Shown here: piece after piece, positions 12,722-62,372 of the stretch
Layout: each line of letters starts with the position of its first letter
How positions within the stretch are numbered: the first letter of the stretch is position 1
From: a virus
Strand: one strand, 5' to 3'
IMG/VR virus record: IMGVR_UViG_3300033978_000724
Coordinates: 1-64,000 of that record
Length of the DNA stretch: 64,000 bases
Notes under the pieces: model-generated
The model's input: only the letters and a program-made list of their open reading frames with translations
Told to the model about the DNA's origin: nothing
Database searches by the model: none
Program-made: the position numbers and the translations under genes

Positions 12722-13048
12722 ATTAGGCCATAAAAGATTGTTCTCTTATTTCTTTTCCTTACAAGTTCTTATTAATATTATAAAGCAAATTCTGTCATCT
12801 CTACACGGCATATACACAAAGACTTTTAGCGATTCGTTCCCTGCGTGAATGATATGCGTTCGCAACAAATACCGACGGCTACGATCAACCTTTTTCGTTG
12901 GCGTTACATTTCGTTACTTTTCAGGTTGTTTTAGTAAAATACACTTTTTGTCAGGCGTGTAATCCATGCCTAGCAAAGATTATACCGGATCGTCACAGAG
13001 GCGAATGAAAATAGACTTTTGGCTAATTTATCTCAGGTATTTTGGGGT
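12722..13048 (+). repeat. Dispersed ~300-bp non-coding element, copy 1
   Basis: Colinear with 51521-51815 (+) and 62088-62372 (-); e.g. CCTGCGTGAATGATATGCGTTCGCAACAAATACCGACGGCTACGATCAACCTTTT is identical to copy 3. Confidence 0.95.
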
Positions 13049-13208
13049 CTGGCCGGCCCATACTTCAATATGGACATTATTTATTTAATTCCGTGGTCCA
13101 ACTTTAGAGCGAAAAATGTTATTCTTGAAAAAGAATAAATCGAATTGCGGGACGAGATTTATTGTTATTTCGAGTTGACCGGGTGGGGTGATCTAGCCAA
13201 GGAAAAAG

Positions 13209-14333
13209 ATGGTTTACCCTGATTTCACTTTGTCCTACGGGACCACGAGCGTGACGCTAAATAATCAGAATATAGTTAGCTGGTCAAGGGCGATGGTTGA
13301 GCCTGATGCCAATGATTTATACAAAGGGATTCCGGTTCGTATTCAAGGTGAAACACTGCATCGCTGGTCGTTGTCTTTGATCGCCAAGAGTGAAGACACG
13401 GGTTTTATTAAGCAAATATACAGGGAAGCGACTAGGGATAGATTTAATAAGGAATTACCCGGTGCTTTTGATGTGACGTTATTAGACAATGCAGAATTGT
13501 CTAATCAGGCAGTGACTCATAAAGTATTAATAGCAACTTGTACACCTAAACCAATGTCATGTGACAGGTATGAGATTGAATTAGAACTAATAGAGAGTCC
13601 TGAATATCTTTATATCCCTACTTTTTCTATTGGCGGTGTGACATTCAATCAATCAGAAGTAATAAGCTATGACTCGTCTGCTGTGGTATCAGAAGGAGAG
13701 CCTAATCTGTGGCAATGGTCGCTAGGTTTGATACTTGATTCTGCCAAAATGACATCATTAGGAAATGTTTATAACGCCCAAGTAATAGGTAAAAGCACTG
13801 CACCATATACTGGATGGGGCGTATTAGTAGTAGATGAAGTTGGATCGGCTCCGGTGGGAATGAAAGCAGAAATAATGAGTTTTTCCCATACGGTATCAGT
13901 GAGGGGTTTTGAAGTACAAATATCTTTATCAGCATTAAGACCAGATGCTGATACATCGGCATTAACATTTACTATTGGCAATGTAGTATTTGCGGGTAAA
14001 GAAATTCAATCAGCTAATAAGTCACCATTAGTATCTAGAAGTATTGAGATCATCCCTACCGGGGCAACAGTGGTAAGAGATAATTGCGGTCCTGGAGTAT
14101 GGCAATGGAATTGTAGTTTTGAATCAACTAGATTAAAATGTGATACAGTTGCCCAATTAGCATGGAGTCAGAGGTCAATTCAGTTAGATGAAGGAACCTG
14201 GTTAGTACCTGTTGCAGATGGAGTAAATGGTGGAGGTGCTGACTGTGCAATAGAATCAGCTAGTATTGCACATATACCAGATAAGCCAGGCAAATATACT
14301 CTGAGTGTTGATTTAAGACAAGTAAATGTATGA
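13209..14333 (+). CDS. Putative tail-tip (distal-tail-like) protein with three tandem domains
   Basis: Three ~120-aa units (FTLSYG..HRWSL / FSIGG..WQWSL / FTIGN..WQWNC); in the tail cluster. Confidence 0.55.
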   Translation: MVYPDFTLSYGTTSVTLNNQNIVSWSRAMVEPDANDLYKGIPVRIQGETLHRWSLSLIAKSEDTGFIKQIYREATRDRFNKELPGAFDVTLLDNAELSNQAVTHKVLIATCTPKPMSCDRYEIELELIESPEYLYIPTFSIGGVTFNQSEVISYDSSAVVSEGEPNLWQWSLGLILDSAKMTSLGNVYNAQVIGKSTAPYTGWGVLVVDEVGSAPVGMKAEIMSFSHTVSVRGFEVQISLSALRPDADTSALTFTIGNVVFAGKEIQSANKSPLVSRSIEIIPTGATVVRDNCGPGVWQWNCSFESTRLKCDTVAQLAWSQRSIQLDEGTWLVPVADGVNGGGADCAIESASIAHIPDKPGKYTLSVDLRQVNV

Positions 14334-14800
14334 CGATAAAAAAGACTCTAAATCAAGAAACTAAAACCATATCTGATGCCAAACAGATAATGTCTCAGAA
14401 TGAGAAAAATATTATTCAAGAGTCAAGGTATCAAAGCAATTTAAGACGTAATACGTCACCTCTCACCAAGCCAAGAGAACAAGCAAAAAACAACAAAGAA
14501 CCTCACGTAATAGTAAAAGGGTTTGACGTTGTTACCGGCAAAATGAGAGCTGAGGATAAAAGCACCGGCAAAATATTTAATGCTAAAGTATTAAGCGATG
14601 GTCCGTTGGCTGTGGGTAGTCGGGTGATGGGATTTCCACCGGCAAACGGAGAGTCAGAGGGATATATTAGGGGACCGATGAAAGGTCCGCCTGTGCCACC
14701 GTTGGAGATACCTAAGAAACCTAAGAAAAAAGAAGAGGAAATAGTCGAAGTGTTAGAATTAAGATATACATTGATAGCGGCTTTTTGTGCTTATAACTAA
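14330..14800 (+). CDS. Putative tail/baseplate protein
   Basis: Coupled to neighbours; GFD..G..R motif shared with 17654..17914. Confidence 0.5.
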   Translation: MTIKKTLNQETKTISDAKQIMSQNEKNIIQESRYQSNLRRNTSPLTKPREQAKNNKEPHVIVKGFDVVTGKMRAEDKSTGKIFNAKVLSDGPLAVGSRVMGFPPANGESEGYIRGPMKGPPVPPLEIPKKPKKKEEEIVEVLELRYTLIAAFCAYN

Positions 14801-15633
14801 TGCCAAATACATATACTTATTTCACGGAGAATTTTTTTAACTACTTAGCTACATCGTTTGGGACGATGATAGAAAGAATAGCGTTAGTAAAAAACGATGA
14901 CGACATAATATTAGAGAATGATCTAGTTATATCCGGGAGTGATGCTGAGTTAATAAATAATACGGAAAAAGAAATAACCGTGACAACAGACAATAATATT
15001 TTTGAATGCACAGCAAAAATAAAAAAAGCAAAAAAAGGTTGGAAGAATAAAACACCTGTTTTCTTTGGATCGTTGACAGCTTTGCTTAATTACTCTCTTA
15101 TTGACTCCATCAACAATGACTCTGATTTATTATTTGCGAATGGAAACCCTACAAAAGACTTATTTGAAACAGTCTTTTATAGTGTATTTAATACCTGTAC
15201 TGATTATAAGATATATGCGTTTAGTGGCACTCCTACCGTAGAAACAGCAGAATACGGTACTTGCACTTATGGCTACTGGGGGTCTCAAGTTGACTTTTTC
15301 TCAATCGCTACGACAAACACCGATACATTTTATCCTGCGTCATTAGGTTCATCACCAAGTACACTTACTTCTTTCCTCTACCAAAGTGAAACAAGTTTGA
15401 TGATGGGTACTTTTACGGAATTAGAAATGAGAATGTCAGGGACTCAAACTATTAATGGTTTTTTTGTTACAAACGAAAGTATCCCCGATCTGTTAAATAC
15501 GGAATCCCCTTTGATTTTATTTGGTTGCTCATTGGAAGGGGGTTTGTCTTTTTCTACTAAACCAGATAGAGAAAATTATGCAATCATAACCACGCCTAAA
15601 ATATCACTATCAATGGATGTAATTATTATATGA
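14800..15633 (+). CDS. Putative virion structural protein
   Basis: Thr/Ser/Phe-rich, acidic; translationally coupled in the tail operon. Confidence 0.5.
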   Translation: MPNTYTYFTENFFNYLATSFGTMIERIALVKNDDDIILENDLVISGSDAELINNTEKEITVTTDNNIFECTAKIKKAKKGWKNKTPVFFGSLTALLNYSLIDSINNDSDLLFANGNPTKDLFETVFYSVFNTCTDYKIYAFSGTPTVETAEYGTCTYGYWGSQVDFFSIATTNTDTFYPASLGSSPSTLTSFLYQSETSLMMGTFTELEMRMSGTQTINGFFVTNESIPDLLNTESPLILFGCSLEGGLSFSTKPDRENYAIITTPKISLSMDVIII

Positions 15634-16283
15634 AAGAGAAATTAAAGATTAGTAAAAAATCTTACGAAACAGCATTTACTTTTCACCTATCAGGAACACC
15701 CGCAAGTTTATTAGTTCCTACTCCTCTGCCTCCGCTTATTCCACCTCTCGCTCCTTTTCCTTCTAGCCCAGGTACTGACTGGTCTTCACCAGGGGATTCG
15801 CCTTTTCCTCCTGGTCATTTCCCACCTGTTGGACCTTATGAGGGGTACAAACAATGGGGAAAGGTTATTCACAGACGCACCAGGCAATACGTTTGGCGAG
15901 GGGAAAACTATAACTACGATCTCACTTATGACGAGGATGGAATGACCCGCTATAACACTTTTAAAAGCAACCACCAGGCAGGGGGTGGGACAGTAGTAAC
16001 CGCTGGTTTTCCCACGGACTGGGGAGTAGAAGATACTATTTTAGGATATTACCCGGTAGATAGTATGCCTGGAGGGTTTGTATCTAAAAGCAAAATCATC
16101 GTGGCGTGGAATGTTTATTTTTGGTTTCAAGAAGTGAATTATGGACCAGATGGACTGACAGAGGCACAGTTATCTAATCCTGATTTCGGAGCTGGAGCAG
16201 CACAATGGTTTCCTTTTATAGCAAGAAACGAAGCGTGGCAAGTATTTTTTTCTGATGATCCTGCCGATTTCTTTATGGCATAA
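15630..16283 (+). CDS. Putative virion structural protein with Pro-rich linker
   Basis: ATGA overlap; PTPLPPLIPPLAPFP linker then an aromatic-rich domain. Confidence 0.5.
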   Translation: MKEKLKISKKSYETAFTFHLSGTPASLLVPTPLPPLIPPLAPFPSSPGTDWSSPGDSPFPPGHFPPVGPYEGYKQWGKVIHRRTRQYVWRGENYNYDLTYDEDGMTRYNTFKSNHQAGGGTVVTAGFPTDWGVEDTILGYYPVDSMPGGFVSKSKIIVAWNVYFWFQEVNYGPDGLTEAQLSNPDFGAGAAQWFPFIARNEAWQVFFSDDPADFFMA

Positions 16284-16295
16284 TAAAAAATTGAA

Positions 16296-17123
16296 TTATT
16301 TGAAAATATCATATTTAACATTCCAGTCTTCATCCCAAATACCACAAATAGCATTTCTTGGTTGACCTGCTAAATGAAAATAATCGCCATCCCATGGGTA
16401 AATATAACAAAGGCTAGAGACATTATTCTCTATGGCAATACGTTTTATTTCATTAAGAAACTTAGTTTGCTGTTGAGGGGAAAACGGATCATGATAATAT
16501 CCCACCTCAGTAAAATGTATCGGCCAAGAGAACCAGTCTAGGTTTTTTATATGAGACAAGACTATTGGCAAGGATTTTAATATTAAATCTTTGCATAATT
16601 TATTTCCTATCGTTTGCACCCCTAGAGAGAGATTAGCACCAGGAAATTTCTCTTGTACTTTTTGGAGAAGACGTAATACTCCGTTGTCCTGGATACCGTT
16701 GCCTGTGTAATGAGTGATCCGGTATGTGTTCATCTCATTAAAAATAATCTCAACGTCAGATGATTGTTTTAGTATTAGTTCTAAGTATGTTATTATTTTT
16801 TGCTCATCAATACCGTTTTTTAAGTTGCCATCAATCTTAAACAATTCATTGAAAACAATCTGCTCTTTCCTTTTGATGCGGTTATGGCTTAACCGGATAG
16901 AACGATCAGCCATTCTTCTCCTAAAAACTCGCTCGTCTTTAAACTCACTCTCTCCTACTAAATAGGATCGAATAGGCAAGTTTATACTAGGATAAAACTC
17001 TGCTATCTTCTGCGAATAGCAATGCTGAGACGCTGTAATAAACCCTAATTGATTGATGTCTAAAATATCCGAGGGGATAATCTTAGAGGGGAGATAAAGC
17101 CCTATGGATAAATTTGTTGCCAT
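16296..17123 (-). CDS. Glycoside hydrolase clan A (GH10-like) protein
   Basis: IVFNEL (acid/base), IIFNEMN, LGVQT, IHFTEVG (nucleophile) and GIWDEDWNVK occur in GH10 order. Confidence 0.6.
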   Translation of the reverse strand: MATNLSIGLYLPSKIIPSDILDINQLGFITASQHCYSQKIAEFYPSINLPIRSYLVGESEFKDERVFRRRMADRSIRLSHNRIKRKEQIVFNELFKIDGNLKNGIDEQKIITYLELILKQSSDVEIIFNEMNTYRITHYTGNGIQDNGVLRLLQKVQEKFPGANLSLGVQTIGNKLCKDLILKSLPIVLSHIKNLDWFSWPIHFTEVGYYHDPFSPQQQTKFLNEIKRIAIENNVSSLCYIYPWDGDYFHLAGQPRNAICGIWDEDWNVKYDIFK

Positions 17124-21364: not shown

Positions 21365-24300
21365 TTATACTGATGTGATTACTTGTATTGTACTTGATGT
21401 GGCAACGTATTCTATCTTGCCTGTAGTGGTATTAAGCCACATTTGCCCTAATGTACCAGCAGACGCTACAGGGCGGGTGGCTGTAGTGAATCGGTTTAGG
21501 ACTAGTTGTCCATTGAGTGATTGAGCGAATAAAGCACCACCAACGCCAACACCTCCAGGAGTAACTATTGCTCCGGTTGTGGTTGAGGTACTTGCTACCG
21601 TGCCATTTACTCTTAATACGGCGGTGGTTGCTAGGTTTATGCCATCGCCTTTTAATAAAGTAAAGGTACGGTTATTGGCTATGAATAAAGCATTTGATTC
21701 TGTGGTGGAATTATAGCCAGCCTCAAATCCCAGAAAAATATTTGAATACCCCGTTGTGTTGAAGAGCCCCGCATTCGCTCCCATAAAGGAGTTGCTACTC
21801 CCCGTTGTGTTAGCATACCCCGCATTCACTCCCATAAAGGAGTTGCTACTCCCCGTTGTGTTGGATTGCCCCGCATTCACTCCCATAAAGGAGTTGCTAC
21901 TCCCCGTTGTGTTGGCATACCCCGCATTCACTCCCATAAAGGAGTTGCTACTCCCCGTTGTGTTGAAGCGCCCCGCATTCACTCCCATAAAGGAGTTGCT
22001 ACTCCCCGTTGTGTTGAAGCGCCCCGCACTCGCTCCCATAAAGGAGTTGTTACTCCCCGTTGTGTTGGATTGCCCCGCACTTACTCCCATAAAGGAGTTG
22101 CTATACCCCGTTGTGTTGGATTGCCCCGCACTCGCTCCCATAAAGGAGTTGCTATACCCCGTTGTGTTGGATTGCCCCGCACTTACTCCCATAAAGGAGC
22201 ATCTATTACTTAGGGATTGAATGCGGTAACCAGTCCCTAACCCCAGAAAAGTAGAACTAAATCGCCCTTTTATTCCGTTAATTCCAGATACTAGACTGCT
22301 ACTAGGATTTATCAATCTCACAGACAATGATACCGTGCCATTGAAATCCGTTGTAGGCAAAAGACTAAAAGTATTGCCTGCAGTAGAAACAGGCAAATCA
22401 ATAGTAGATGAATCCGTAATACTGGGGATAGAATTTCCTCCAAAACCTAATGTAATACTCCCTACCGTTCTATTGGTAATATTTAAAGCAATTCTGTAAA
22501 CTTCGTTTAAAACCAAACTACTAGCTAAATTGCCAGTGATAAAATCAACACCTGTAGTATGAGTAGCATTACCCCCACTTATAGTCCATCCCGTAGCCAC
22601 ATCCCAACTAGTAAATAATTCTGTAGCAGAAATAGATGATTCTACTATTGTGTCATTAATGATTACCCCGCCGGTTAGAGTCTTTTGCCCGGTGATAGTT
22701 TGGGTAGATACAATATCAACTACTCCTGTTATTTTAGTTGAATCAAGAGTAGGAATATCACTGGCTAATAACGACCCACTACCAGTAACTAGCCCCTTAG
22801 AATTATAAGTAGGTTTAGCACTAGACCCGGCTGTCACTATATTAGGTAGAGTAGCAGTAATAGCGGTAGTACCAGAACCTGTTACATCTCCACTGATAGT
22901 TATATTCTGGTTTCCAGTTATGTATGTACTGCCATCAAGCCCCCATACGCCCCCGGTTTGCTTGAGAAATCCTGATGTTCCTGTTACTCCACTAATATTT
23001 GTTAGGGTAGTATTCAATGGCTGATAACTAGACATAGCAGACGATGTTGTCAGGTAAGTATTAGCATCAAGCGTATAAGAACCGTCACCTACTTTCCTGA
23101 CAAAACCTTGTGTATCAGCTAAAGCAATAAAAGCAGTCAATTCATTGTTGGTATTTTGTTTTGAGGCTAAAGACGTATTTACTTCTGATTTGCTGAAGCT
23201 ATAAGTGCTTATAGCCGTATCTGTTTCGGCTTTTGTATAAGCATTTGTTATCCCATAGCCTGATACGGTGGTGGGTTGCCCTGTTAATTTAGACCAATCT
23301 ATACCACCTGGAATATCAGAAGCAAGTAACGCTGTACCGCCGGTTATTAATCCTTTGGCGTTATAGGTTATTTTAGGATTACTACCAGCCGTCACAATAT
23401 CAGACAATGTAACTGTTATAGCTGTTGTACCAGAGCCTGAAGCATCTCCACTCAGTGTAATAGTTTGATTGCCAGTCAAATAAGCCGAAGCATCCAAAGA
23501 CCAAACGCCGGCTGTCATCTTAGGTACTCCAGCCGTACCCACTAATCCACTAATACCAGTTAAATTAATATTTAGAGGTTGATAGCTAGATAGGGCAGAC
23601 TCTGTAGTCAGATAGGTATTAGAGTCAAGCGTATATGAACCATCACCCACTTTTCGGACAAATCCTTGTACATCTGGTAATGCGGAAAAGCCCGATAATT
23701 CATTATTGGCTATTTGATAGTTATTTGAGTCTATTCCCCATACACCTGCTGTTTTCCTAATAATGCCGTTGCCTGTCAAACCGGCAATATCTGTTAAATC
23801 AGAATCTAATGGCTGGAATGGTCCTGAGACGGTTCGCCATGTATTAGTTCCTGTTCTTTCTAAATATCCGGTAGTAGATAAAGACGCAATTGCGGTTAAA
23901 TCACCGTCCTGTATTTGATATGAATTAGTATCCATACCCCAAGCACCGCCAACTTTAACAAGAAAACCATCAATAGTTAGCCCACCGATACTGGTTAATC
24001 CACTATTTAATGGCTGGTAAGAAGCTGACGCTGATGTAGTGGTCAAATATGAACTACTGTCTATAGCATAGATTCCATCGCTTATCTTTTTGATAAAACC
24101 TGGAGTATCTGATAACGCAGATAATGCAGATAATTCATTGCTTTTAGCTTGGTAGTCATTTGATAAAACCACCGCACCTATTTTCCCATCTACAGAGAAA
24201 ACGCCATCTGTAGGTGTGGGTAATTCCACCCAATTAGATAGAGACGTAGCAGGAGTGGATTGTAATATAAATGTTTTATTGTTGTCAGTTCGTACCGCTA

Positions 24301-24520
24301 TATCCCCTTTCTGGGCGATTAACTCCAACATTTCTGACTCTGAATCCACCACAAAAGTATCTGTGATAGAAATATTTGGCAATTGAGATTGAGGTACTTT
24401 AGCAGATGAATCTAATGTTGCAACACCATTAGCACTACCTCTTTGAGTGAGTGGGATGTAATCACCCGTTACCCCGCCACCTGTGCTAGTGCCGGCATCA
24501 GGGAAAAAGTTTACCGCCAT
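21365..24520 (-). CDS. Tail fibre / receptor-binding protein
   Basis: NGVATLDSSAKVPQSQLP and GDIAVRTD collar motifs; repeated YQPL..LT.ISG and NQTITLSGD..GSG shaft units; 17-aa G..AG..NTTG beta-roll repeats. Confidence 0.9.
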   Translation of the reverse strand: MAVNFFPDAGTSTGGGVTGDYIPLTQRGSANGVATLDSSAKVPQSQLPNISITDTFVVDSESEMLELIAQKGDIAVRTDNNKTFILQSTPATSLSNWVELPTPTDGVFSVDGKIGAVVLSNDYQAKSNELSALSALSDTPGFIKKISDGIYAIDSSSYLTTTSASASYQPLNSGLTSIGGLTIDGFLVKVGGAWGMDTNSYQIQDGDLTAIASLSTTGYLERTGTNTWRTVSGPFQPLDSDLTDIAGLTGNGIIRKTAGVWGIDSNNYQIANNELSGFSALPDVQGFVRKVGDGSYTLDSNTYLTTESALSSYQPLNINLTGISGLVGTAGVPKMTAGVWSLDASAYLTGNQTITLSGDASGSGTTAITVTLSDIVTAGSNPKITYNAKGLITGGTALLASDIPGGIDWSKLTGQPTTVSGYGITNAYTKAETDTAISTYSFSKSEVNTSLASKQNTNNELTAFIALADTQGFVRKVGDGSYTLDANTYLTTSSAMSSYQPLNTTLTNISGVTGTSGFLKQTGGVWGLDGSTYITGNQNITISGDVTGSGTTAITATLPNIVTAGSSAKPTYNSKGLVTGSGSLLASDIPTLDSTKITGVVDIVSTQTITGQKTLTGGVIINDTIVESSISATELFTSWDVATGWTISGGNATHTTGVDFITGNLASSLVLNEVYRIALNITNRTVGSITLGFGGNSIPSITDSSTIDLPVSTAGNTFSLLPTTDFNGTVSLSVRLINPSSSLVSGINGIKGRFSSTFLGLGTGYRIQSLSNRCSFMGVSAGQSNTTGYSNSFMGASAGQSNTTGYSNSFMGVSAGQSNTTGSNNSFMGASAGRFNTTGSSNSFMGVNAGRFNTTGSSNSFMGVNAGYANTTGSSNSFMGVNAGQSNTTGSSNSFMGVNAGYANTTGSSNSFMGANAGLFNTTGYSNIFLGFEAGYNSTTESNALFIANNRTFTLLKGDGINLATTAVLRVNGTVASTSTTTGAIVTPGGVGVGGALFAQSLNGQLVLNRFTTATRPVASAGTLGQMWLNTTTGKIEYVATSSTIQVITSV
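21740..22198 (-). repeat. Nine near-identical in-frame 51-bp tandem repeats in the tail fibre gene
   Basis: Unit SFMG[V/A][S/N]AG[QS/RF/YA/LF]NTTG[Y/S][S/N]N with a 51-nt period. Confidence 0.95.
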
Positions 24521-51229: not shown

Positions 51230-51512
51230 TTTATTTGTCTGTAGCTACGGTCTAAGGTGGCTGATGTGGGAATACAAGTTATTCGACAATCAAAGGGCTT
51301 ATCTCGCAAATCTACACCCAATCCTGAAAGAATTAACCGGCTGTTCCTATTGCCAGATGATCGAGTGTTCTACTTTCCTTTGGGTCGTCTTTGAATTAAC
51401 CAACGTTCATCACTACCCAATTCCGATTGGTTTAGGGTATGTCCTCTTTTTTGGCTGGACAGCGTGGGTAATTTCCTTGCTAGAGAATTTACTCGACCGG
51501 CCCAAAGATTAA
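51222..51512 (+). CDS. Small membrane protein with CxxC (DUF1360-like)
   Basis: LKELTGCSYC followed by hydrophobic helices. Confidence 0.55.
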   Translation: MFDLFVCSYGLRWLMWEYKLFDNQRAYLANLHPILKELTGCSYCQMIECSTFLWVVFELTNVHHYPIPIGLGYVLFFGWTAWVISLLENLLDRPKD

Positions 51513-51520
51513 ATAATTAC

Positions 51521-51815
51521 ATTAGGCCAATAGATGATTTCTCTTTTTCTCTCTTACAGATTTGGTATATATATTATAAAGCATTTTCTGTCATCCCTAG
51601 GATTTAATACTAGAAACACTTTTAGCGATCCGGCGGGTGCGTGAATGAAGGCTATTCGCAACGAATACCGACGGCTAGGATGTACTTTTCCCGTCGGCGT
51701 TTCATTTCTTTACTTTTTAACCTGTTCTGGCTAAATACACTTTTTGTCAGCCGTCAAAGCTATGTCAGATATAGGATTATGCGATCCGCTGGTGTGGCGA
51801 ATGAAATCAGACATA
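51521..51815 (+). repeat. Dispersed ~300-bp non-coding element, copy 2 (most diverged)
   Basis: Shares ATTAGGCCA, ATATTATAAAGCA.TTCTGTCAT, ACTTTTAGCGAT, TGCGTGAATGA, AATACCGACGGCTA, AAATACACTTTTTGTCAG and GGCGAATGAAA in the same order. Confidence 0.93.
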
Positions 51816-51921
51816 GGTCGGGGTGTTTTTTAAAGTTGAGATTAATTATTTAGTATTTTGGACCAAACGTTAGCAAAAAAAGAGTCCCTTTGAGTAAATA
51901 TTCTGGACTCCTTTTTTGTGA

Positions 51922-53490
51922 CTAATTAACCTCGACCCCATTCTGATCGACAGGTATTTCCACTAAATCAACCCCACCCACCTGACTCTCTACCTTCCCC
52001 AAAATAGTCGGCAAATCCAATCCCTCACTAATCCCCTTGGCTACAGACTGGGGAGTAAGTACACCATATTTAAGCAATAAGTCATACCAGGGAATTAAAT
52101 CAGTAGCCAATGGCGAGACTTCTTTTTTCTCTTCTAAATCAAAATTATCTGGCAACCATTTACCCTCTTTCAATAAAGATAAATATTGTTCTGTGTTGAT
52201 GATACCTTTATCGTTTAACCCTCTGTATAACTCCGCTTTAGCTAAGTCAATTTGTTTTTCTAGTACAGCAGAATTAACCTTAACCGTCCCGCCTTTACCT
52301 GGTTTGTTCTCCCATAACGCCCAGATATTAAATACCGACTGAATAGCTGACTCCTTGTTTTTTGCCATATTAACCAAGTTAGCTTCTGACGATGCAGTGT
52401 CACGACTAATCTCTGTGGCTGTGGCTGTGGCTGTCCTAGCATTACCAGTCTGAAACGCCAAAGTTTTTAACCTCATCGCCTCAATTAATTTATCAATGTC
52501 ATTCTGCATCGGACCGATAGCTTCAGGACCGGGTGAGATAAATGATGCCTCACAATTCTTGATGTACATATTGGAGCCAATAGTTATTTCTTCATCCCCT
52601 AAAGCACCCGGACTTAATTCTTTTATCTGAAGGAACGGACATAATTTGTGGATAAGGTCATCTTTATTACTTGATTTTTGGAATAGCTGTAATTCCATCT
52701 CAGCTAAATCATAGAGTGGAATAGGTGACACTAGCGGGTCCTGAGATAATCCTGTGAGAGAATAGACAACGATAGGCATAACTGGCAGGGAATATTTGCC
52801 GTCTTCTATTAACACAGGGGTTTCAGTGTCTTCTTCCTCCTGCCAGACCTGATACCATTGATCGCCGATTACCCGGTATTGTTCTACTACCTTTTCCCCA
52901 AATGGTCCGTCTTCTACTATTAAAGATTGCTCAATAGTTAACTGAGTGATTGGATTATCTCTTGATTGGAGATTAGGGTTCGTTCTAGCATTAGGAATAT
53001 CTTTTCTCTCTATCAATACTAAATAAGGTCGTCGTCCTAACTGTCTTGATTCATATAAGGTGCTAGGCGTTTCGGTAGGGTAATCTATTAGAATCAAACA
53101 AAATCCATGCTTTAAAGATGCAATATCAGCTTGTTGAAAAAAGACCTCAATACTATTCCCTTTACCATCTATATTGTCTTTATGTTCTAACAGTGACTCT
53201 AATACGTCTTCATTTAATACAAAGTTTAGGAACCCGGCTGTACTTTGGATTGAATCTCTAAATACATTACGAAAATAAGAGTTAGCTATTCGTTTATGAT
53301 ATTGATCGCTAGGCTCCCCTGACTCTCTAGGGAGATAACGCATAATTTTTTCGCCATTATAAATACCCTCAAGCGGAGAATACCAAACACTCCGACCCTC
53401 GTACATATCATCCACAAACTCTAATTTCTTGTGTATCTCACGATAAAATAGTGATTCATAATTGGGAAAATCTTTGTTAGTATCGCTCAT
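51922..53490 (-). CDS. Portal protein (DUF4055-type)
   Basis: YLPRESGEPSDQYHKRI, NIDGKGNSI, RPYLVLI, PLYDLAEMEL, TATEISRD. Confidence 0.9.
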   Translation of the reverse strand: MSDTNKDFPNYESLFYREIHKKLEFVDDMYEGRSVWYSPLEGIYNGEKIMRYLPRESGEPSDQYHKRIANSYFRNVFRDSIQSTAGFLNFVLNEDVLESLLEHKDNIDGKGNSIEVFFQQADIASLKHGFCLILIDYPTETPSTLYESRQLGRRPYLVLIERKDIPNARTNPNLQSRDNPITQLTIEQSLIVEDGPFGEKVVEQYRVIGDQWYQVWQEEEDTETPVLIEDGKYSLPVMPIVVYSLTGLSQDPLVSPIPLYDLAEMELQLFQKSSNKDDLIHKLCPFLQIKELSPGALGDEEITIGSNMYIKNCEASFISPGPEAIGPMQNDIDKLIEAMRLKTLAFQTGNARTATATATEISRDTASSEANLVNMAKNKESAIQSVFNIWALWENKPGKGGTVKVNSAVLEKQIDLAKAELYRGLNDKGIINTEQYLSLLKEGKWLPDNFDLEEKKEVSPLATDLIPWYDLLLKYGVLTPQSVAKGISEGLDLPTILGKVESQVGGVDLVEIPVDQNGVEVN

Positions 53491-55022: not shown

Positions 55023-55084
55023 TACCATGAAACCATTGAGAACAAAGGAACCCAAAAAAGATTTAAAATATCTTTGAAAATGTA

Positions 55085-55113
55085 TTGACAATTCAAAAGT
55101 ATTAATCTAGTAT
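55085..55113 (+). promoter_or_regulatory. Sigma70-type promoter
   Basis: TTGACA-N17-TAGTAT; 22 bp identical to the 63.65-kb promoter. Confidence 0.8.
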
Positions 55114-57433: not shown

Positions 57434-57584
57434 TGTTTCTTGTTATTAAAAACTGTTTTTTATTCTAGCAGATTGAATCGCAATTACGATATTTATGGTA
57501 AAATATTTATATAAAAATTCCCCTCGCTGGTTGGTACTGGAATACCGGGACCACAGGGGATGTAACCTAAATGGAGAGGTCACA

Positions 57585-58214
57585 ATGAGTAATTTATCAT
57601 ATCAAGGAAACAGTATAACCCAAAGAGATGGCGACGGGTATGTCAACGCTACCCAAATGGCAAAAGCTAATGATGCAAGGTTTGACAACTGGATCGCAAC
57701 CGAAAATGCTAAGGAATACCTGAAAGCCTTGCAGGAGTCTGATCTCCTGGAAATTCAGGAAAACAATAAAACCCTTATTGTTGTAGAGTCCAAAGGTTTT
57801 CCTGCTATTAAAACTATGTGGGTTCATCCTCTCGTTGCGATAGCCTTCGCTCAGTGGATTAGTCCAAGGTTTCATGTTTGGTGTAACCAGCATATTAAGA
57901 CGTTACTAGAAACAGGTAAAACCACAACAGGCAAGTTTAAGCACAATCTTGAATGGTATGACCGCCTACTTTACTACAAAGCTAGGACAAAAATAGAAGT
58001 TGGTTATTTCTCAATCTTTGAAGAATTAAACAATTCAATCATCAGCGAATTAGAACACTCTGGTTATACCTTGCCACTAGGTTCTGTCCCTGATATTAGC
58101 GTTGGACAATGTTTTTGTAATTACCTCAGAAGTATTGGCTATAACCTAGAGAAAATAACCAAACTTTATACTCATTATTATCCTGATGGACGGGTTATTT
58201 GCCAAGTTATCTAG
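57585..58214 (+). CDS. KilA-N domain DNA-binding protein; 3' end possibly frameshifted
   Basis: RDGDGYVNATQMAKA..WVHPLVAIAFAQWISPRF; GGAGAGG RBS before ATG 57585. Confidence 0.9.
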   Translation: MSNLSYQGNSITQRDGDGYVNATQMAKANDARFDNWIATENAKEYLKALQESDLLEIQENNKTLIVVESKGFPAIKTMWVHPLVAIAFAQWISPRFHVWCNQHIKTLLETGKTTTGKFKHNLEWYDRLLYYKARTKIEVGYFSIFEELNNSIISELEHSGYTLPLGSVPDISVGQCFCNYLRSIGYNLEKITKLYTHYYPDGRVICQVI

Positions 58215-58293: not shown

Positions 58294-58366
58294 TGCGTCT
58301 TACTGGAATCGAACCAGCCTTAAGGTGAATTATGAGTTCACTGCCTCCCCAATCGGCCAAAAACGC
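58294..58366 (-). tRNA. tRNA with CAT anticodon (elongator Met or Ile2); no encoded CCA
   Basis: Acceptor stem GCGTTTT/AAGACGC, anticodon arm GTGAA-CTCATAA-TTCAC, T arm GCTGG-TTCGATT-CCAGT, discriminator A. Confidence 0.9.
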
Positions 58367-58387
58367 TAATGAGATTATTATACCTTG

Positions 58388-58855
58388 TTACGCCACATCT
58401 CTCAAATAAATCAGCAACCCATAATGAGCAATACATAAAGCATCTGCCATGCCATCATGTTGCTTCCTACATCTTGGTAAAATCAAATTAACCTGCGGAT
58501 AACGTCTGGTACAGAAATCTATCGCCGCATCTTTATCTTTAGCCGTACCACTCAATACCGATCCTTTCCACTTCTGAGGTGTTACTAATTCTAACGGTAT
58601 TCCCGCTCCCATCACCGCACCTAACACCATGCCGTAACCTTTGCCAAAAGAAAAAGTAGAAGCGACTCCCTGTCCTGGCATAGAATGAACCTGCTCTGAT
58701 ATTACTAACTCAACTTTATGACTTCTTAATGTCTCAATCAACGCCGAAACATTAATATCTTTACCAGAAATAGGAATAGGATAAGTAAACGCCTTATTGC
58801 CATCTATAATAGCTATTCCACCCTTCAAACCTGGATCAATTCCACATATAATCAT
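58388..58855 (-). CDS. ruvC: RuvC-like Holliday junction resolvase
   Basis: GIDPGLKGG, ISEQV, FSFGKGYG, VTPQKWK, DGMADAL. Confidence 0.88.
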   Translation of the reverse strand: MIICGIDPGLKGGIAIIDGNKAFTYPIPISGKDINVSALIETLRSHKVELVISEQVHSMPGQGVASTFSFGKGYGMVLGAVMGAGIPLELVTPQKWKGSVLSGTAKDKDAAIDFCTRRYPQVNLILPRCRKQHDGMADALCIAHYGLLIYLRDVA

Positions 58856-58890
58856 AGATATATTTTAACTAATTAATTTCTATAATTATA

Positions 58891-60360
58891 ATGCAGAAAT
58901 CTTCACGATCAACAAAAGAACTATTAACGCCATTAACTACCGCATCAGCTACCAGGTTTTTAAAGAATAAAATAAAATCATCTGATACTAAAGAGAAATT
59001 ATCATGGGTAGATTTTGCTAAGAAATGCCAGATACGGTCGGGGCGTGAGTTAATACCATTCACCCCGTATGATTGGCAGGAGCAGTTTTTAGAACAAATA
59101 GAAAAACATTCTGGTATCGTTTTATGCAAATCAAGGCAATTAGGAGCCACAGAATTTATTGGCAACTGGTTATTATGGCAGGCATCAAACGATCCTGGTT
59201 TCGTTGCAGTGGTATTCTCCAAAACTCAATCAGACTCTAGTGACATCGCCAAGCGAGTAAGAGATATGATTGTCACCTATCCTGACTTAGCATTTGAAAC
59301 TAACAACCAAAAAGATTTAAAATTATTGAATGGTGGCAGGATTATCTTTAAAGCATCAACACCTAACGCCGCCCGTGGTATTCCTTCGGTGGCAGTAGTA
59401 GTATTTGATGAATGTGCTTTTGTGGAAGGGGTAGAAACGATATACGCATCAGCACAGCCCGCTACTTCTATGTTAGGTGATAAAGCTAAGACAATATTAA
59501 TGAGTACCCCAAATGGTCAACAAGGTTTCTATTGGGAGATGTTACGAGAGGGGAACGAATCAGAAGAAATATTAAATATTTGCCGAGGCATCAGGACAGG
59601 AGAATTACCACCTGTCCTGTATTGGTCTGACAATCATTGGTGCAAGTTTTTTGTACACTGGAAATCTCACCCGGTTTATGCCTCTGATGAGAATTACTTA
59701 CAGAAAGTGAAGGACAGGCAGAAATTAACCGACGCTCAATTACAGAGAGAATATGACCTAAACTTTGAGGAAGCAGTAAACGCACTCTATCCACAGGAAT
59801 TAGTATTAAGAGGTGCTAGAGGCGTATTCCAGAACGCTATGCAAGGTAGAAAATACATAGCCGGCATTGATCCGGCATTTGGTGGTTCTGATTATTTCTG
59901 CTTGACTATTTGGGATGTTAGTTTTAATCCATACCAATTAGTCAGGATGTACCGAGAGAATAATAAGAGTAAGGATTATAACTTAGTGAACACGGTACAG
60001 ATATTAAGTCAATATCGCCCGTCTGTTGTGGGGGTGGAAAGTAATTCAGGCGGGCGGTTAATACTTGAGGATTTAATAAACAAGATGCCATGGTGCAAGA
60101 TTGAGGCTGTGAACACCACTGAATCATCTAAGATTGTCGCCACGGATAGATTATTATTACTATTGGAGCGTGATCAGGTGATCTACCCGGATTGTGAGTT
60201 AAAATCTGAACTACTCAACTTTAGGGAATCAATCAATGGTACCAGGAGAAAAAGAGAGGCAATAGCTGGTCATGATGATACTGTCATGAGTTCTGCTATT
60301 GCCTTTAGTGTGTTCTCTATTCCTTTCTTTGATGCTGGAATAGGAACGGTTAGATACTAA
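58891..60360 (+). CDS. terL: Terminase large subunit
   Basis: PYDWQ, KSRQLGAT, VVFDECAF, MSTPNG, QREY, AGIDPA, GHDDTVMS. Confidence 0.95.
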   Translation: MQKSSRSTKELLTPLTTASATRFLKNKIKSSDTKEKLSWVDFAKKCQIRSGRELIPFTPYDWQEQFLEQIEKHSGIVLCKSRQLGATEFIGNWLLWQASNDPGFVAVVFSKTQSDSSDIAKRVRDMIVTYPDLAFETNNQKDLKLLNGGRIIFKASTPNAARGIPSVAVVVFDECAFVEGVETIYASAQPATSMLGDKAKTILMSTPNGQQGFYWEMLREGNESEEILNICRGIRTGELPPVLYWSDNHWCKFFVHWKSHPVYASDENYLQKVKDRQKLTDAQLQREYDLNFEEAVNALYPQELVLRGARGVFQNAMQGRKYIAGIDPAFGGSDYFCLTIWDVSFNPYQLVRMYRENNKSKDYNLVNTVQILSQYRPSVVGVESNSGGRLILEDLINKMPWCKIEAVNTTESSKIVATDRLLLLLERDQVIYPDCELKSELLNFRESINGTRRKREAIAGHDDTVMSSAIAFSVFSIPFFDAGIGTVRY

Positions 60361-60414
60361 ACGAATCTCTCAGGATAGGCTCTCTTTGCTTGCTCCAAAG
60401 AGAAAAGTTTTATC

Positions 60415-60636
60415 CTATTTGGTTAAATTGACTCCGTTTAAACCGTTCACTACCATGTTGCTTAGTTCTTTTAGCACAATACAACTAAGCTCCGCCTCTG
60501 ACGAAGAGGCTATTATTTTTTTTGTCATTTCCTCGTCTTGTAAAAACTGTGAAACCATTTCCTTCTTTTCTTCAAAGGTAAGGCAATGCTCCTCACATAT
60601 ATTTTCGTAAGCTATTTTTAATTGCTGTCTATCCAT
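60415..60636 (-). CDS. Hypothetical protein
   Basis: GAGGG RBS. Confidence 0.6.
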   Translation of the reverse strand: MDRQQLKIAYENICEEHCLTFEEKKEMVSQFLQDEEMTKKIIASSSEAELSCIVLKELSNMVVNGLNGVNLTK

Positions 60637-60653
60637 TTTTCCCTCTTTGTTGG

Positions 60654-60821
60654 TTATTTGGTTAACTCTTTTAGCTCCTGATGGAGCCTCTGGTTTTTCT
60701 GCCTAAGACTGGTCACGGTCTTAAACAGGGCTTCGTTTTCTTTCAGGAGTCGCCTGACTGACTCTTCTAGCTCATCTCGTGTCATTTCTGACAACGGAAT
60801 AGGCGCACCTGGTTTATTCAT
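60654..60821 (-). CDS. Unannotated 55-aa coiled-coil protein
   Basis: MNKPGAPIPLSEMTRDELEESVRRLLKENEAL..LRQKNQRLHQELKELTK; overlaps the upstream stop. Confidence 0.6.
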   Translation of the reverse strand: MNKPGAPIPLSEMTRDELEESVRRLLKENEALFKTVTSLRQKNQRLHQELKELTK

Positions 60822-61035
60822 GTGGTTCTACCACTGAAATATACTTCTCTCCTTTTACATAGCGAAACTTTAAAAACCCGTCTCTAATTGCTTCGTCTAA
60901 ATCCTGGCGAATAGTACAATCTACTGACCTGGTTCCTAGTTGGGATACAATATTCACCCATGCCATCTCTTTATGGACCGACTTACTTATTAATTGTTTT
61001 ATTTTCTCTAGCATTGTTTGTTGATTTTCTATCAT
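60814..61035 (-). CDS. Hypothetical winged-helix-like protein
   Basis: AAGGAG RBS; TIRQDLDEAIRDGFL. Confidence 0.6.
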   Translation of the reverse strand: MIENQQTMLEKIKQLISKSVHKEMAWVNIVSQLGTRSVDCTIRQDLDEAIRDGFLKFRYVKGEKYISVVEPHE

Positions 61036-61083
61036 CGTTTTTCTCCTTTTATTTTTAGTTTATCGTCGTTTCGGACGGGACTA

Positions 61084-61587
61084 TTAAAATACTACTTCGG
61101 GGTCTAATAACACCTGTTGGGATAAGTCTCTGTGATGATAGATGAAGTATTGCACGTCTCTAGGTAATAAGTTGTTTTCTATTGCGTTGGTTGTCCAACC
61201 GATATTTTTCCTGAGGATGTCAATCACCCAAGATAATTGACCGGCTGTCCCCCATATCCCTAACTTTCTACAAACATCTGCTTTCTGTCTAGCAGTGCCG
61301 GCCATGAATATTTGATGGGCTAAGTTAGCCGCCCGGACTCTCTCCGGGGTAACTACGGGATTTTCAGTCTCTAGTTTCTCTATTTCTTTATTAATAGCGT
61401 TCAACAAATAACCAAACACATCAGCATAATACTTGGCGGTTGTGGCTACCTGAGTGTTTTCTGGATTGGCTTTAGCTACGGGTTCGTTATATCTAGTCAT
61501 TTCTAACAATAAACTAACAATTCTAGTTTTGTTGTTATATTTTTTTGCTACTTTTAGCTGGGCCAATAATACTTTTAAGTTTTTCAT
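61084..61587 (-). CDS. Hypothetical early protein
   Basis: Start ATG 61587 after a GGAGAGGA leader shared with the 63576 gene. Confidence 0.65.
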   Translation of the reverse strand: MKNLKVLLAQLKVAKKYNNKTRIVSLLLEMTRYNEPVAKANPENTQVATTAKYYADVFGYLLNAINKEIEKLETENPVVTPERVRAANLAHQIFMAGTARQKADVCRKLGIWGTAGQLSWVIDILRKNIGWTTNAIENNLLPRDVQYFIYHHRDLSQQVLLDPEVVF

Positions 61588-61785
61588 TTTATTTTCCTCT
61601 CCCTTAAGCCGGAGTCGCTTTTCATTTGTTTCTATATTTTTATAATACACGGTTATCTGTATTTTAACCAGATAGACCTATATAAATTATTTATACCCTT
61701 CAATGAAAATCCACTATTTCACTTATCATTTAAAACATAGATAACCGTGCTAACCTGAGAATCATATATATAAAGGATAAAAACA

Positions 61786-62016
61786 ATGGTAACTAGAAAC
61801 CCCAAAGGCAGTCCCGCCACTTTGACCTCATTCAAAGTAGAAGGACCATTAATCATCCCAGGCGACAGATTGTCTAAAAAGATGACTGCGATCCGACTCC
61901 AGCAAAAGGTAGAAGACGCTTTAAACAAAATCCCACCCAAAGAACGGCCCGCTTTTCTCAGAAAATGTATCACCGAAGCATTAGTCACAAGTGGACTTCT
62001 TGATCTGCCTGACTAA
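61786..62016 (+). CDS. Small RHH-like DNA-binding protein
   Basis: MTAIRLQQKVEDAL..RPAFLRKCITEAL; AAAGGA RBS. Confidence 0.6.
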   Translation: MVTRNPKGSPATLTSFKVEGPLIIPGDRLSKKMTAIRLQQKVEDALNKIPPKERPAFLRKCITEALVTSGLLDLPD

Positions 62017-62087
62017 GAATAATTACTTAATCACCTGGACTAATTTAAAAATAATCATGGGCCGTTATGGTCCTTTTTTGTTTGCCA

Positions 62088-62372
62088 ACCCCAAAATACC
62101 TGAGATAAATTAGTCAAAAGTCAATTTTCATTCGCCTCTGTGGTGGTCTGGTGTGATTCATGCCAGGTATAGATTACACGCATGACAAAAAGTGTATTTT
62201 GCTAAAACAACTTAAAATGTAACGAAATGTAACGCTAACGGAAAAGGTTGATCGTAGCCGTCGGTATTTGTTGCGAACGCATATCATTCACGCAGGTAGC
62301 GAATCGCTAAAAGTCTATCCTAGTATTGATTACAGAGATGACAGAATTTGCTTTATAATATAATAAGAACAT
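62088..62372 (-). repeat. Dispersed ~300-bp non-coding element, copy 3 (inverted)
   Basis: Reverse complement aligns almost without gaps to 12766-13048. Confidence 0.95.

What the first reader, a model, noticed from the sequence alone, without database searches (positions are those of the whole stretch)
12722..62372. Three dispersed copies of a modular ~300-bp non-coding element bracket the virion and packaging modules
Seen: copies at 12722-13048 (+), 51521-51815 (+) and 62088-62372 (-). Each has a pyrimidine/AT-rich end (ATATTATAAAGC) and two sub-modules TGTCA-N49-GAATGA (156 bp apart in copy 1: 12793/12949 and 12847/13003). Between them is a central GCAAC..CCGACGG..CCGTCGG/CGTTGG..GTTAC inverted arrangement. 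Substitutions cluster in the two imperfect-palindrome spacers after TGTCA while box spacing is preserved, which suggests protein-binding sites rather than neutral decay. No shared ORF, transposase or terminal inverted repeats. Copies 1-2 (direct) enclose the tail/capsid region; copies 2-3 (inverted) enclose the portal-TerS-MTase-ParB-RuvC-TerL block. Inference: multiple replication origins, recombination/inversion sites generating genome isomers, loading sites for the FtsK/TraB-like translocase, or a structured RNA family.
Basis: partly seen in the sequence, partly recalled or inferred. Interest (0 to 1): 0.82.

Follow-up and report, generated by a model that had tools for sequence, protein, structure and literature searches.

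The report
Candidate multi-copy replication origin of cyanophage
A lake cyanophage carries three full copies and one half copy (the half copy inside its own replication-initiator gene) of a private ~300-bp non-coding element with fixed sequence boxes at fixed spacing, most likely DNA sites where a protein complex assembles, and my best guess is that they are replication origins.

Summary
Copies lie at 12708-13069 (+), 51505-51848 (+) and 62066-62399 (-). A fourth, half-length copy lies outside the window at genome 90535-90669 (+), inside the primase-helicase gene.

Each full copy is two homologous ~156-bp units. Each unit has a TTyTGTCA box and a GnGAAyGA box 54 bp apart. The three full copies align over 271 columns without an internal indel. 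Substitutions cluster strongly (P<5e-5).

The element was found only in this phage and one close relative. It was absent from host genomes, isolate phages and Rfam. The structured-RNA reading is not supported: fold z-scores are near 0 and 11 units give no consensus pairs. The inversion-site reading lacks a recombinase. It does not look like a MITE.

The initiator is a primase fused to a herpesvirus UL9-type origin-binding helicase (profile E 5e-17; Foldseek E 1.5e-11 along the whole UL9 chain). Each copy has a very AT-rich arm. No classical iteron array exists elsewhere in the genome.

Best reading (about 0.4): redundant origins or initiator-loading sites, as in SPP1 oriL/oriR or the three HSV-1 origins. 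No binding, replication or transcription data could be obtained, so the function is inferred.

Another first-stage note of this scan made the same origin suggestion for the half copy.

The parts
12708..13069 (+). Copy 1, full element (AT-rich arm + unit A + central segment + unit B). It lies between a leftward DUF5710-like gene and a rightward gene that starts at 13209.
   Evidence: nhmmer E 3e-107; sequence read; ORF context.
12715..12790 (+). AT- and pyrimidine-rich 5' arm of copy 1, a candidate DNA-unwinding element. It ends in the invariant box ATATTATAAAGCA (12775-12787).
   Evidence: The least stable 40-bp window starts at 12745 and lies at the 99.66th percentile of the genome. The box is invariant in copies 1-3; TATAAAGCA is also kept in the partial copy.
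12790..12852 (+). Core of unit A. It holds TTCTGTCATC (12790-12799), a variable 22 nt, ACTTTTAGCGAT (12822-12833), a variable ~8 nt, then TGCGTGAATGA (12842-12852). TGTCA to GAATGA is 54 bp.
   Evidence: Invariant runs and spacing. The same core is present in the partial copy in the replicase gene.
12845..12863 (+). Imperfect dyad GTGAATG-N5-CGTTCGC joining box 4 to box 5 (GTTCGCAAC, 12858-12866). It is kept in all four copies with changes that preserve pairing.
   Evidence: Pair table. The partial copy reads TGAACG-N5-TGTTCA. GTTCGCAA is 7/8 identical to HSV-1 OBP Box 1 GTTCGCAC, but this is not significant.
12868..12917 (+). Central segment. It holds the invariant AATACCGACGGCTA (12868-12881), the inverted partner TCGTTGG (12895-12901), and two 10-bp direct repeats CGTTAC(A/T)TTT (12902-12921).
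   Evidence: TRF period 10, 2.1 copies.
12926..13030 (+). Unit B, homologous to unit A at an offset of exactly 156 bp. It holds AAATACACTTTTTGTCA (12937-12953), a variable ~46 nt, then GGCGAATGAAA (13000-13010).
   Evidence: In-register identity A vs B is 46/100 against a background of 26, z 4.4, with the maximum exactly at offset 156.
51505..51848 (+). Copy 2, full element, the most diverged (76-77% to copies 1 and 3). It lies downstream of ThyX and small ORFs and converges on the portal gene (51922-53490, minus). A bidirectional terminator-like hairpin follows at about 51885-51925.
   Evidence: In a close relative a 623-bp insert with a co-oriented 114-aa ORF follows it directly.
62066..62399 (-). 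Copy 3, full element, inverted, 90% identical to copy 1. It diverges from the dUTPase gene (62404-62871, +). Its 3' end faces a terminator (62059-62073) and a 76-aa + strand ORF (61786-62016).
   Evidence: In the + ORF, 15 of 18 strain differences fall at codon position 3.

Best explanation
The elements are cis-acting DNA sites on which a sequence-specific protein complex assembles. Most likely they are redundant replication origins, or initiator-loading and arrest sites, for the phage's own initiator. That initiator is a 1253-aa zinc-finger primase fused to a UL9-type SF2 origin-binding helicase.

Proposed mechanism (inferred). The initiator, through its C-terminal winged-helix region, binds the fixed boxes of a 156-bp unit (TTyTGTCA and GnGAAyGA, five helical turns apart) and the GTGAAY-N-RTTCRC dyad. 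Two units per full element allow cooperative binding. The adjacent, very AT-rich arm then melts, and the fused primase and helicase start synthesis.

The half copy inside the linker-coding part of the initiator gene would be the counterpart of SPP1 oriL in gene 38, or of lambda ori in gene O. The three intergenic copies would correspond to SPP1 oriR or to the three redundant HSV-1 origins.

Shown here: copy number, box and spacing conservation, unit duplication, location of the half copy, the nature of the initiator, the AT-rich arms, and the lack of RNA structure. Inferred: that the initiator binds these boxes and that replication starts or pauses there.
For: (1) Seven units in the genome keep invariant boxes at fixed spacing while the spacers are saturated with changes and carry no indels. 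This is the pattern of a phased nucleoprotein site.

(2) A half copy (AT arm + unit A) lies in the hypervariable linker of the initiator gene. In a 71-73% identical homologue the peptide it encodes is 93% identical, within the top 9% of windows, with changes only in the element's variable spacer. Homology ends right after it. Homologues at 38-45% identity lack it.

(3) The initiator family hits herpesvirus origin-binding proteins at E 5e-17, with the next hit at 7e-4. The AF2 model of residues 400-1110 (pLDDT 85) has HSV-1 OBP as its top four Foldseek hits, E 1.5e-11 over 777-863 columns, against about 350 columns for generic helicases. Residues ~999-1055 form a three-helix plus two-strand winged helix. 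That region's best wide-search match is the UL9 DNA-binding domain bound to OriS (Z 5.2, 171 residues aligned).

(4) The AT-rich arm of each copy lies in the 99.1-99.96th percentile of duplex instability. The arm inside the coding region is the sixth least stable place in the genome.

(5) TRF finds no iteron-type tandem array anywhere else in the genome.

(6) Precedents: SPP1 has oriL inside gene 38 and oriR among late genes, with the same organisation (PMC6316719). HSV-1 has three redundant origins bound by UL9 (PMC12543377).

(7) Context argues against an mRNA leader. Copies 2 and 3 face convergent genes and the half copy is antisense inside a gene.
Against: No experiment or read-depth profile links the elements to replication. 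GC skew follows gene orientation and is uninformative.

The boxes are not classical iterons. There are only two homologous units per element and no run of three or more short repeats.

The box resembling HSV Box 1 is absent from the half copy, and its match is within chance.

The fold match of the C-terminal region to the UL9 DNA-binding domain is weak (Z 5.2). UL9-like helicases also occur in phages without proven origin binding, such as T5 D2 (PMC3632103).

The high conservation of the half copy could reflect a recent mosaic exchange rather than DNA-level selection: the N-terminal 92 residues are also 98% identical.

Four origins in 97 kb is unusual for a phage.
Confidence: 0.4

Rival explanations
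1. Small non-coding RNA genes, or promoter cassettes that make priming or antisense RNA. Each unit would carry a -10-like box (TATAAA / TAAAAT or TACACT) a few bases before TGTCA. The transcripts would act in trans, or as R-loop primers as at T4 or T7 origins. The half copy would give an antisense RNA to the initiator mRNA.
For: An AT-rich -10-like box precedes TGTCA in both units. The small hairpin GUGAAUG/CGUUCGC keeps pairing through G-U-compatible changes only on the element's sense strand. Copies 2 and 3 are followed by terminator-like hairpins. In the relative, copy 2 precedes a co-oriented ORF.
Against: There is no Rfam match, even at E 5. Fold z-scores are -0.41, -0.23 and +0.34, and +0.31 for the opposite strand of copy 1. 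RNAalifold over 11 units gives zero pairs, and the 3-copy fold has a positive covariation term with only one compensatory pair. The sigma-70 scan finds no sense-strand promoter at a common position. The pairing-preserving changes are all transitions, which dominate anyway (table 1). The variable segments have no above-chance complement in the genome. No RNA holder is listed among public runs, which is uninformative.
Confidence: 0.2
2. Binding arrays for a different phage DNA-binding protein, not the initiator. Candidates are a transcription regulator (KilA-N, Bro-N or HTH proteins), the ParB_N protein acting as a clamp-loading or genome-organising site, or the small terminase (auxiliary pac-like sites).
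For: The same box and spacing pattern argues for a nucleoprotein complex but does not identify the protein. The genome encodes two KilA-N proteins, one Bro-N, an HTH_23 small-terminase-like protein and one ParB_N protein. Copies 2 and 3 flank the packaging genes.
Against: No ParA partner is encoded. The boxes do not recur in other intergenic regions, as operators of a global regulator would. The copy inside the initiator gene has no obvious rationale for packaging or transcription. Multiple pac sites would be unusual.
Confidence: 0.2
3. A selfish or passive dispersed repeat with no cis function. It would be maintained by gene conversion, and its main effect would be as a homology patch for recombination and module exchange, as with mobile regulatory cassettes or boundary sequences.
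For: Mosaic junctions coincide with element edges twice. A 623-bp insert follows copy 2 directly in the relative. The initiator's C-terminal domain is swapped directly after the half copy. The B-spacer of copy 3 differs from its orthologue by about 34% and partly resembles copy 1, which suggests conversion between copies.
Against: Uniform decay is rejected. The same boxes stay invariant across paralogues that are about 50% diverged in their spacers. There are no terminal inverted repeats, target duplications or transposase. The element is absent from 185,579 prokaryotic species genomes and from all other viral contigs searched.
Confidence: 0.1
4. Crossover sites of a programmed site-specific inversion or excision system that generates genome isomers.
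For: The copies occur in both orientations. Copies 1 and 3 are 90% identical over 229 nt.
Against: No tyrosine or serine recombinase is encoded. No joint in public contigs links the copies, and the loose ends at 62088 and 62361 are the flanks of copy 1 cross-mapped. The elements are ten times longer than known crossover sites.
Confidence: 0.03

Closest known systems
Bacillus phage SPP1 origins oriL and oriR (bound by the origin-binding protein gp38)
   Same: Both have more than one origin-like element of similar organisation, with repeats next to an AT-rich unwinding region. One copy lies inside the initiator's own gene and another lies in an intergenic gap among virion genes. The distal SPP1 copy is proposed to stall forks and trigger the switch to concatemeric replication (PMC6316719).
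   Different: SPP1 has two copies, short direct repeats, and a separate DnaB-type helicase and loader. Here there are three and a half copies made of 156-bp units, and a single primase-UL9-like helicase fusion. Nothing is shown experimentally here.
Herpes simplex virus 1 oriS/oriL with the UL9 origin-binding protein
   Same: The phage initiator's helicase core, and its overall layout as far as the C-terminal DNA-binding region, match UL9. HSV-1 uses three redundant origin copies. Spacing between OBP boxes and an AT-rich segment matter, and an imperfect inverted pair of boxes forms a hairpin (PMC12543377).
   Different: The phage protein carries an N-terminal primase. The RVKNL recognition motif was not identified. 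The phage element is not a Box1-AT-Box2 palindrome. The only Box 1-like 8-mer (GTTCGCAA) is within chance and is missing from two of the four copies in that form.
Lambda ori inside gene O, and P4 ori/crr bound by the alpha primase-helicase (from established knowledge, not tested here)
   Same: Lambda's origin lies in the linker-coding part of the initiator gene. P4 alpha is a primase-helicase with a C-terminal winged-helix DNA-binding domain that binds repeats at two separate loci (ori and crr).
   Different: Those origins are arrays of short iterons. P4 alpha has an SF3-type helicase. No sequence similarity to either was found.
PeSL-type mobile regulatory cassettes of T4-like phages (from established knowledge)
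   Same: Both are dispersed, conserved non-coding cassettes at module boundaries that coincide with mosaic junctions.
   Different: PeSLs are about 50-100 bp, consist of an early promoter plus a stem-loop, and are numerous. Here no consensus promoter or stable stem-loop was found, and one copy is inside a gene.

Membership tests
Initiator-bound phage replication origin (SPP1 oriL/oriR, lambda ori type) | Repeated initiator-binding motifs | tested here: inconclusive
   There are two homologous 156-bp units per element, and boxes recur at offset 156. ACTTTT-type 10-mers occur three times and CGTTACATTT twice. There is no array of three or more identical short iterons.
Initiator-bound phage replication origin (SPP1 oriL/oriR, lambda ori type) | Adjacent AT-rich DNA-unwinding region | tested here: met
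   The 5' arm of every copy lies in the 99.1-99.96th percentile of nearest-neighbour instability (40-bp windows).
Initiator-bound phage replication origin (SPP1 oriL/oriR, lambda ori type) | A copy within or next to the initiator gene | tested here: met
   The half copy at genome 90535-90669 lies inside the primase-helicase ORF 90241-94002.
Initiator-bound phage replication origin (SPP1 oriL/oriR, lambda ori type) | Specific binding by the initiator, and replication starting there | not testable with these tools
   Only assembled contigs of public runs were available, with no raw reads and no RNA holder. GC skew is uninformative.
Herpesvirus-type origin (UL9 boxes around an AT spacer) | A UL9-type origin-binding helicase is encoded | tested here: met
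   The profile matches PDB UL9 chains at E 5e-17. Foldseek gives E 1.5e-11 over the whole chain. Pfam PF02399 scores 25.2 bits on homologue P0002.
Herpesvirus-type origin (UL9 boxes around an AT spacer) | Inverted GTTCGCAC-type boxes flanking an AT-rich spacer | tested here: not met
   Only a 7/8 match is present, in copies 1 and 3. Copy 2 has 6/8 and the half copy has none in that form. The dyad spacer is 5-7 nt and not AT-rich. Enrichment is not significant.
Structured non-coding RNA family | Match to a described family | tested here: not met
   Rfam 15 gives 0 matches at gathering threshold over the window. Only two chance-level matches appear at E up to 5 in the three loci, neither on the element core.
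Structured non-coding RNA family | Conserved secondary structure with covariation, and stability above shuffles | tested here: not met
   z-scores are -0.41, -0.23 and +0.34 for the sense strand of copies 1-3, and +0.31 for the opposite strand of copy 1. Eleven units give 0 consensus pairs. The three-copy fold has covariation term +0.91 and 1 compensatory pair out of 52.
MITE / non-autonomous transposon | Terminal inverted repeats, target-site duplication, and copies in the host or in many genomes | tested here: not met
   No terminal inverted repeats or duplications are shared by the copies. Only chance hits appear in 185,579 species genomes and in JGI metagenomes. Only one close relative holds it in IMG/VR.
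Site-specific inversion system (Gin/gix-like) | A cognate recombinase gene | tested here: not met
   PF00589 and PF00239 are absent from the genome while the controls are positive.

The most novel reading that the evidence does not exclude
A tailed phage runs a herpesvirus-like initiation system. A primase-fused UL9-type origin-binding protein would recognise a new kind of composite origin, made of phased 156-bp units next to an unwinding arm. That origin would be present as three redundant full copies plus a half copy embedded in the initiator's own linker-coding DNA. This would couple initiator expression or evolution to origin function, and would make the origins the breakpoints of module exchange.
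Probability: 0.3. Interest if true: 0.72.

Novelty: new variant of a known kind. Interest (0 to 1): 0.55.

Why it matters
Replication origins of uncultured phages are almost never identified, and cyanophage origins are essentially unknown. If these elements are origins, the phage would be a compact bacterial counterpart of the herpesvirus UL9/oriS system, with three redundant origins and one embedded in the initiator gene. That would add replication initiation to the capsid and terminase features already shared by tailed phages and herpesviruses.

It would also give a defined protein-DNA pair that is easy to test: residues ~850-1110 of the initiator against a 156-bp unit. The coincidence of element edges with mosaic junctions suggests that such sites also shape phage genome shuffling.

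Tried and rejected
Searches for the element elsewhere:
- blastn against 50,697 isolate phages gave no match.
- Exact-pattern scans of IMG/VR with three boxes found only one close relative plus chance 16-mers (nhmmer re-check).
- The GTDB species genomes gave 0 hits and 1 chance hit in a Lysinibacillus.
- The JGI metagenome scan gave one chance hit in GC-rich coding DNA.

Searches for relatives of the phage:
- Relatives were sought through TerL, the initiator and an initiator alignment in IMG/VR. Only the same relative, or nothing, was found.
The DNA of the informative homologues P0002-P0005 could therefore not be read.

Public sequencing runs:
- No RNA holder was listed, and all holders are kept as contigs.
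- Contigs break at the element because it is a repeat, and no joint links the copies.
- The strain variants seen equal the IMG/VR relative.

Readings rejected:
- Small ORFs in the element. The 29-37-aa sense ORF shows mostly non-synonymous change. The antisense ORF of unit A is open in all copies, but its conservation is at the DNA-box level.
- Guide or antisense function of the variable segments. The longest matches elsewhere in the genome are no longer than for shuffled controls.
- A partition system. There is no ParA.
- A late sigma factor. There is no sigma-70 region 2.

Uninformative tests:
- GC skew follows gene orientation.
- Local alignment of unit A against unit B was not significant. 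The in-register test was.
- Foldseek of the C-terminal model alone gave only weak MarR-type winged-helix hits (E 0.13 or higher).

Full report
**Setting.** The window is the first 64 kb of a 97,031-bp IMG/VR virus record with GC 38.5%. Its 127-bp terminal repeat looks like an assembler overlap of a circular or permuted genome. The large terminase is nearest to those of Cylindrospermopsis and Nodularia cyanophages, at 34-36% identity. All public runs that hold the DNA are lake, pond or lagoon metagenomes. Distant homologues of its initiator come from Microcystis, Prochloraceae and Chamaesiphon assemblies. It is therefore a freshwater cyanophage of a sparsely sampled lineage.

- The repeat finder recovers the three copies.
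- A profile built from them finds exactly three full copies in the whole genome: 12708-13069 (+), 51505-51848 (+) and 62066-62399 (-).
- The same profile finds a fourth, partial copy at genome 90535-90669 (+), outside the window.
- Copies 1 and 3 are 90% identical over 229 nt. Copy 2 is 76-77% identical to both.

**Anatomy.**
- The three full copies align over 271 columns without a single internal indel, although 109 columns vary.
- The invariant columns form blocks: seven runs of 10 nt or more against 0.57 expected, and none of 20,000 shuffles gives as few runs.
- The blocks are, in order: ATATTATAAAGCA, TTCTGTCATC, ACTTTTAGCGAT, TGCGTGAATGA, TTCGCAAC, AATACCGACGGCTA, a pair of CGTTAC(A/T)TTT repeats, AAATACACTTTTTGTCA and GGCGAATGAAA.
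- The two sub-modules are homologous. When each copy is compared with itself at all offsets, identity peaks exactly at 156 bp in all three copies (43-51% against 26%, z 3.9-5.2).
- A full element is therefore an AT/pyrimidine-rich arm, unit A, a central segment and unit B.
- In every unit TGTCA and GAATGA are 54 bp apart, about five helical turns. The units are 156 bp apart, about fifteen turns.
- The partial copy is the arm plus unit A only, with a 55-bp spacing.

**Distribution.** The element is private to this phage lineage.
- It is absent from 50,697 isolate phages and from Rfam.
- It is absent from 185,579 prokaryotic species genomes apart from one chance hit.
- It is absent from JGI metagenome contigs apart from one chance hit.
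- In IMG/VR only one 32-kb fragment of a close relative carries it, at the orthologous places of copies 2 and 3.
- It is therefore not a host MITE, and it has no terminal inverted repeats, target duplications or transposase.

**Is it RNA?** The evidence points away from a structured RNA.
- Each copy folds no better than dinucleotide shuffles: z = -0.41, -0.23 and +0.34, and +0.31 for the opposite strand of copy 1.
- The three-copy consensus fold has a positive covariation term and only one compensatory pair out of 52.
- Eleven units (seven from this genome, four from the relative) yield no consensus pair at all.
- The consensus promoter scan finds no sense-strand promoter at a common position.
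- One small hairpin, GUGAAUG-N5-CGUUCGC, does keep pairing in all four copies through one-sided changes. All of those changes are transitions, which dominate strain differences anyway.
- As DNA, this hairpin is an imperfect dyad, which suits a dimeric binding protein equally well.
- The variable spacers have no above-chance complement elsewhere in the genome.

**Is it a 5' leader?** Only copy 1 sits directly upstream of a co-oriented gene.
- Copy 2 runs into the 3' end of the portal gene.
- Copy 3 runs into a terminator and a convergent 76-aa gene, whose reality is supported by 15 of 18 strain differences at codon position 3.
- The half copy is antisense inside a gene.
- In the relative, a 623-bp insert with a co-oriented 114-aa ORF follows copy 2. 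A promoter role therefore cannot be fully dismissed.

**The half copy and the initiator.**
- The half copy lies in a 1253-aa ORF (genome 90241-94002, minus strand) with an N-terminal zinc finger, a primase-like region and a Walker-A helicase.
- A profile of 22 family members matches herpesvirus origin-binding protein (UL9) chains at E 5e-17, while the next PDB hit is at 7e-4.
- Pfam Herpes_ori_bp passes its threshold on the closest homologue.
- An AlphaFold model of residues 400-1110 (pLDDT 85) has HSV-1 OBP as its four best Foldseek hits, E 1.5e-11 and aligned along the whole 811-residue chain. Generic SF2 helicases follow, aligned over the core only.
- Residues ~999-1055 form a three-helix, two-strand winged helix.
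- The wide structural search of residues 850-1110 ranks the UL9 C-terminal DNA-binding domain bound to OriS first. The score is weak: Z 5.2, rmsd 5.9, 171 residues aligned.
- Directly after this region comes a low-complexity linker that is unalignable among homologues at 38-45% identity. The half copy sits in that linker.
- In the 71-73% identical homologue the peptide encoded by the half copy is 93% identical, within the top 9% of 46-residue windows. Its substitutions fall in the element's variable spacer, and similarity ends right after it, where a different C-terminal domain follows.

**Support for an origin reading.**
- The AT-rich arm of every copy is among the least stable 1% of 40-bp windows. 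The arm inside the coding region is the sixth least stable place of the genome.
- No iteron-type tandem array exists anywhere else in the genome.
- A very distant family member on a Prochloraceae contig sits 4.3 kb from a textbook array of about ten 20-bp iterons.
- SPP1 offers a direct precedent. It has two origins of the same organisation, one inside the origin-binding protein's gene and one in an intergenic gap among late genes. The latter is proposed to arrest forks and trigger concatemer synthesis (PMC6316719).
- HSV-1, whose OBP is the closest solved relative of this initiator, uses three redundant origins. There, box spacing, an AT-rich segment and a hairpin of two imperfectly inverted boxes matter (PMC12543377).

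**Cautions.**
- The element's box GTTCGCAA is 7/8 identical to HSV Box 1. However, there are 17 such matches in the genome, the two inside elements are paralogues, and the half copy lacks it. I treat it as coincidence until tested.
- UL9-like helicases occur in other phages without proven origin binding, such as T5 D2 (PMC3632103).
- Conservation of the half copy could reflect a recent mosaic exchange.
- GC skew follows transcription.
- No read-depth, RNA or long-read data were available.

**Other readings.**
- Programmed inversion lacks a recombinase and any joint in public contigs.
- A partition role lacks a ParA.
- Passive repeats are contradicted by the box pattern. Even so, element edges coincide with mosaic junctions twice, so the copies probably also serve as recombination patches.

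**Verdict.** This is a real, statistically well-defined and lineage-private family of cis elements built of phased 156-bp units. The most likely function is as origin or initiator-loading sites of a primase-UL9-like initiator (about 0.4). Small RNA or primer promoters (about 0.2) and sites for another DNA-binding protein (about 0.2) are the main rivals.

Noticed in passing
genome 90241-94002 (outside the window; L039:2242-6003, minus strand): The replication initiator is a 1253-aa fusion of a zinc-finger/primase module with a herpesvirus UL9-type origin-binding helicase (profile E 5e-17; Foldseek E 1.5e-11 over the whole UL9 chain). Its C-terminal ~85-aa domain is swapped for an unrelated one in a 73% identical homologue.
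   Followed up: yes
L044:5483-5706 (Prochloraceae MAG contig JASJDA010000100.1): A distant homologue of the initiator lies 4.3 kb from a classic array of about ten 20-bp iterons (unit ATCGAAGTTATCCCGTCGCG) with an AT-rich flank. This is probably the origin of a cyanobacterial plasmid or prophage.
   Followed up: partly
L006:575-1199 versus window 51829-51908: The close relative, also seen in lake runs X6 and X8, has a 623-bp insertion directly after copy 2. It carries a 114-aa ORF with no homologue in this genome, a moron-like gain or loss at the element's edge.
   Followed up: partly
L005:7596-8970 versus genome 66266 / 73487: In the relative, sequence continues from 66266 into 73487 in inverted orientation, next to a ~115-bp repeat also present at 57487-57599, 66080-66191 and 78542-78640. 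These are the KilA-N/Bro gene leaders noted by another reader. This is a rearrangement at a dispersed repeat.
   Followed up: no
window 55064-55109 and 63634-63679; similar at 12638-12680: A 46-nt inverted repeat (83%) contains TTGACA with a -10-like box. At 12667-12639 it scores TTGACA-17-TAATAT on the minus strand. It is probably a shared sigma-70-type early promoter.
   Followed up: no
window 11403-11445 and 12568-12610: A 43-nt direct repeat (91%) lies immediately upstream of two leftward genes, so they share a 5' leader or ribosome-binding region.
   Followed up: no
window 21615-22250: Nine tandem 51-nt (17-aa) repeats at 85-91% identity lie inside the 1051-aa ORF 21365-24520 (minus strand). 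This is one of two proteins that match the podophage fiber family Gp80.
   Followed up: no
window 61786-62016 (+): A 76-aa ORF with its own terminator (62059-62073) appears to be a real gene, with 15 of 18 strain differences at codon position 3. The overlapping 89-aa minus-strand ORF is probably spurious.
   Followed up: partly
whole genome ends: The 'direct terminal repeat' is 127 bp, a common maximum assembler k-mer size. It probably marks a circular assembly rather than true physical ends.
   Followed up: no
window 58294-58366 (-): A tRNA-Met (CAT) gene lies between the KilA-N gene and the RuvC-like gene. It is the only tRNA in the window.
   Followed up: no
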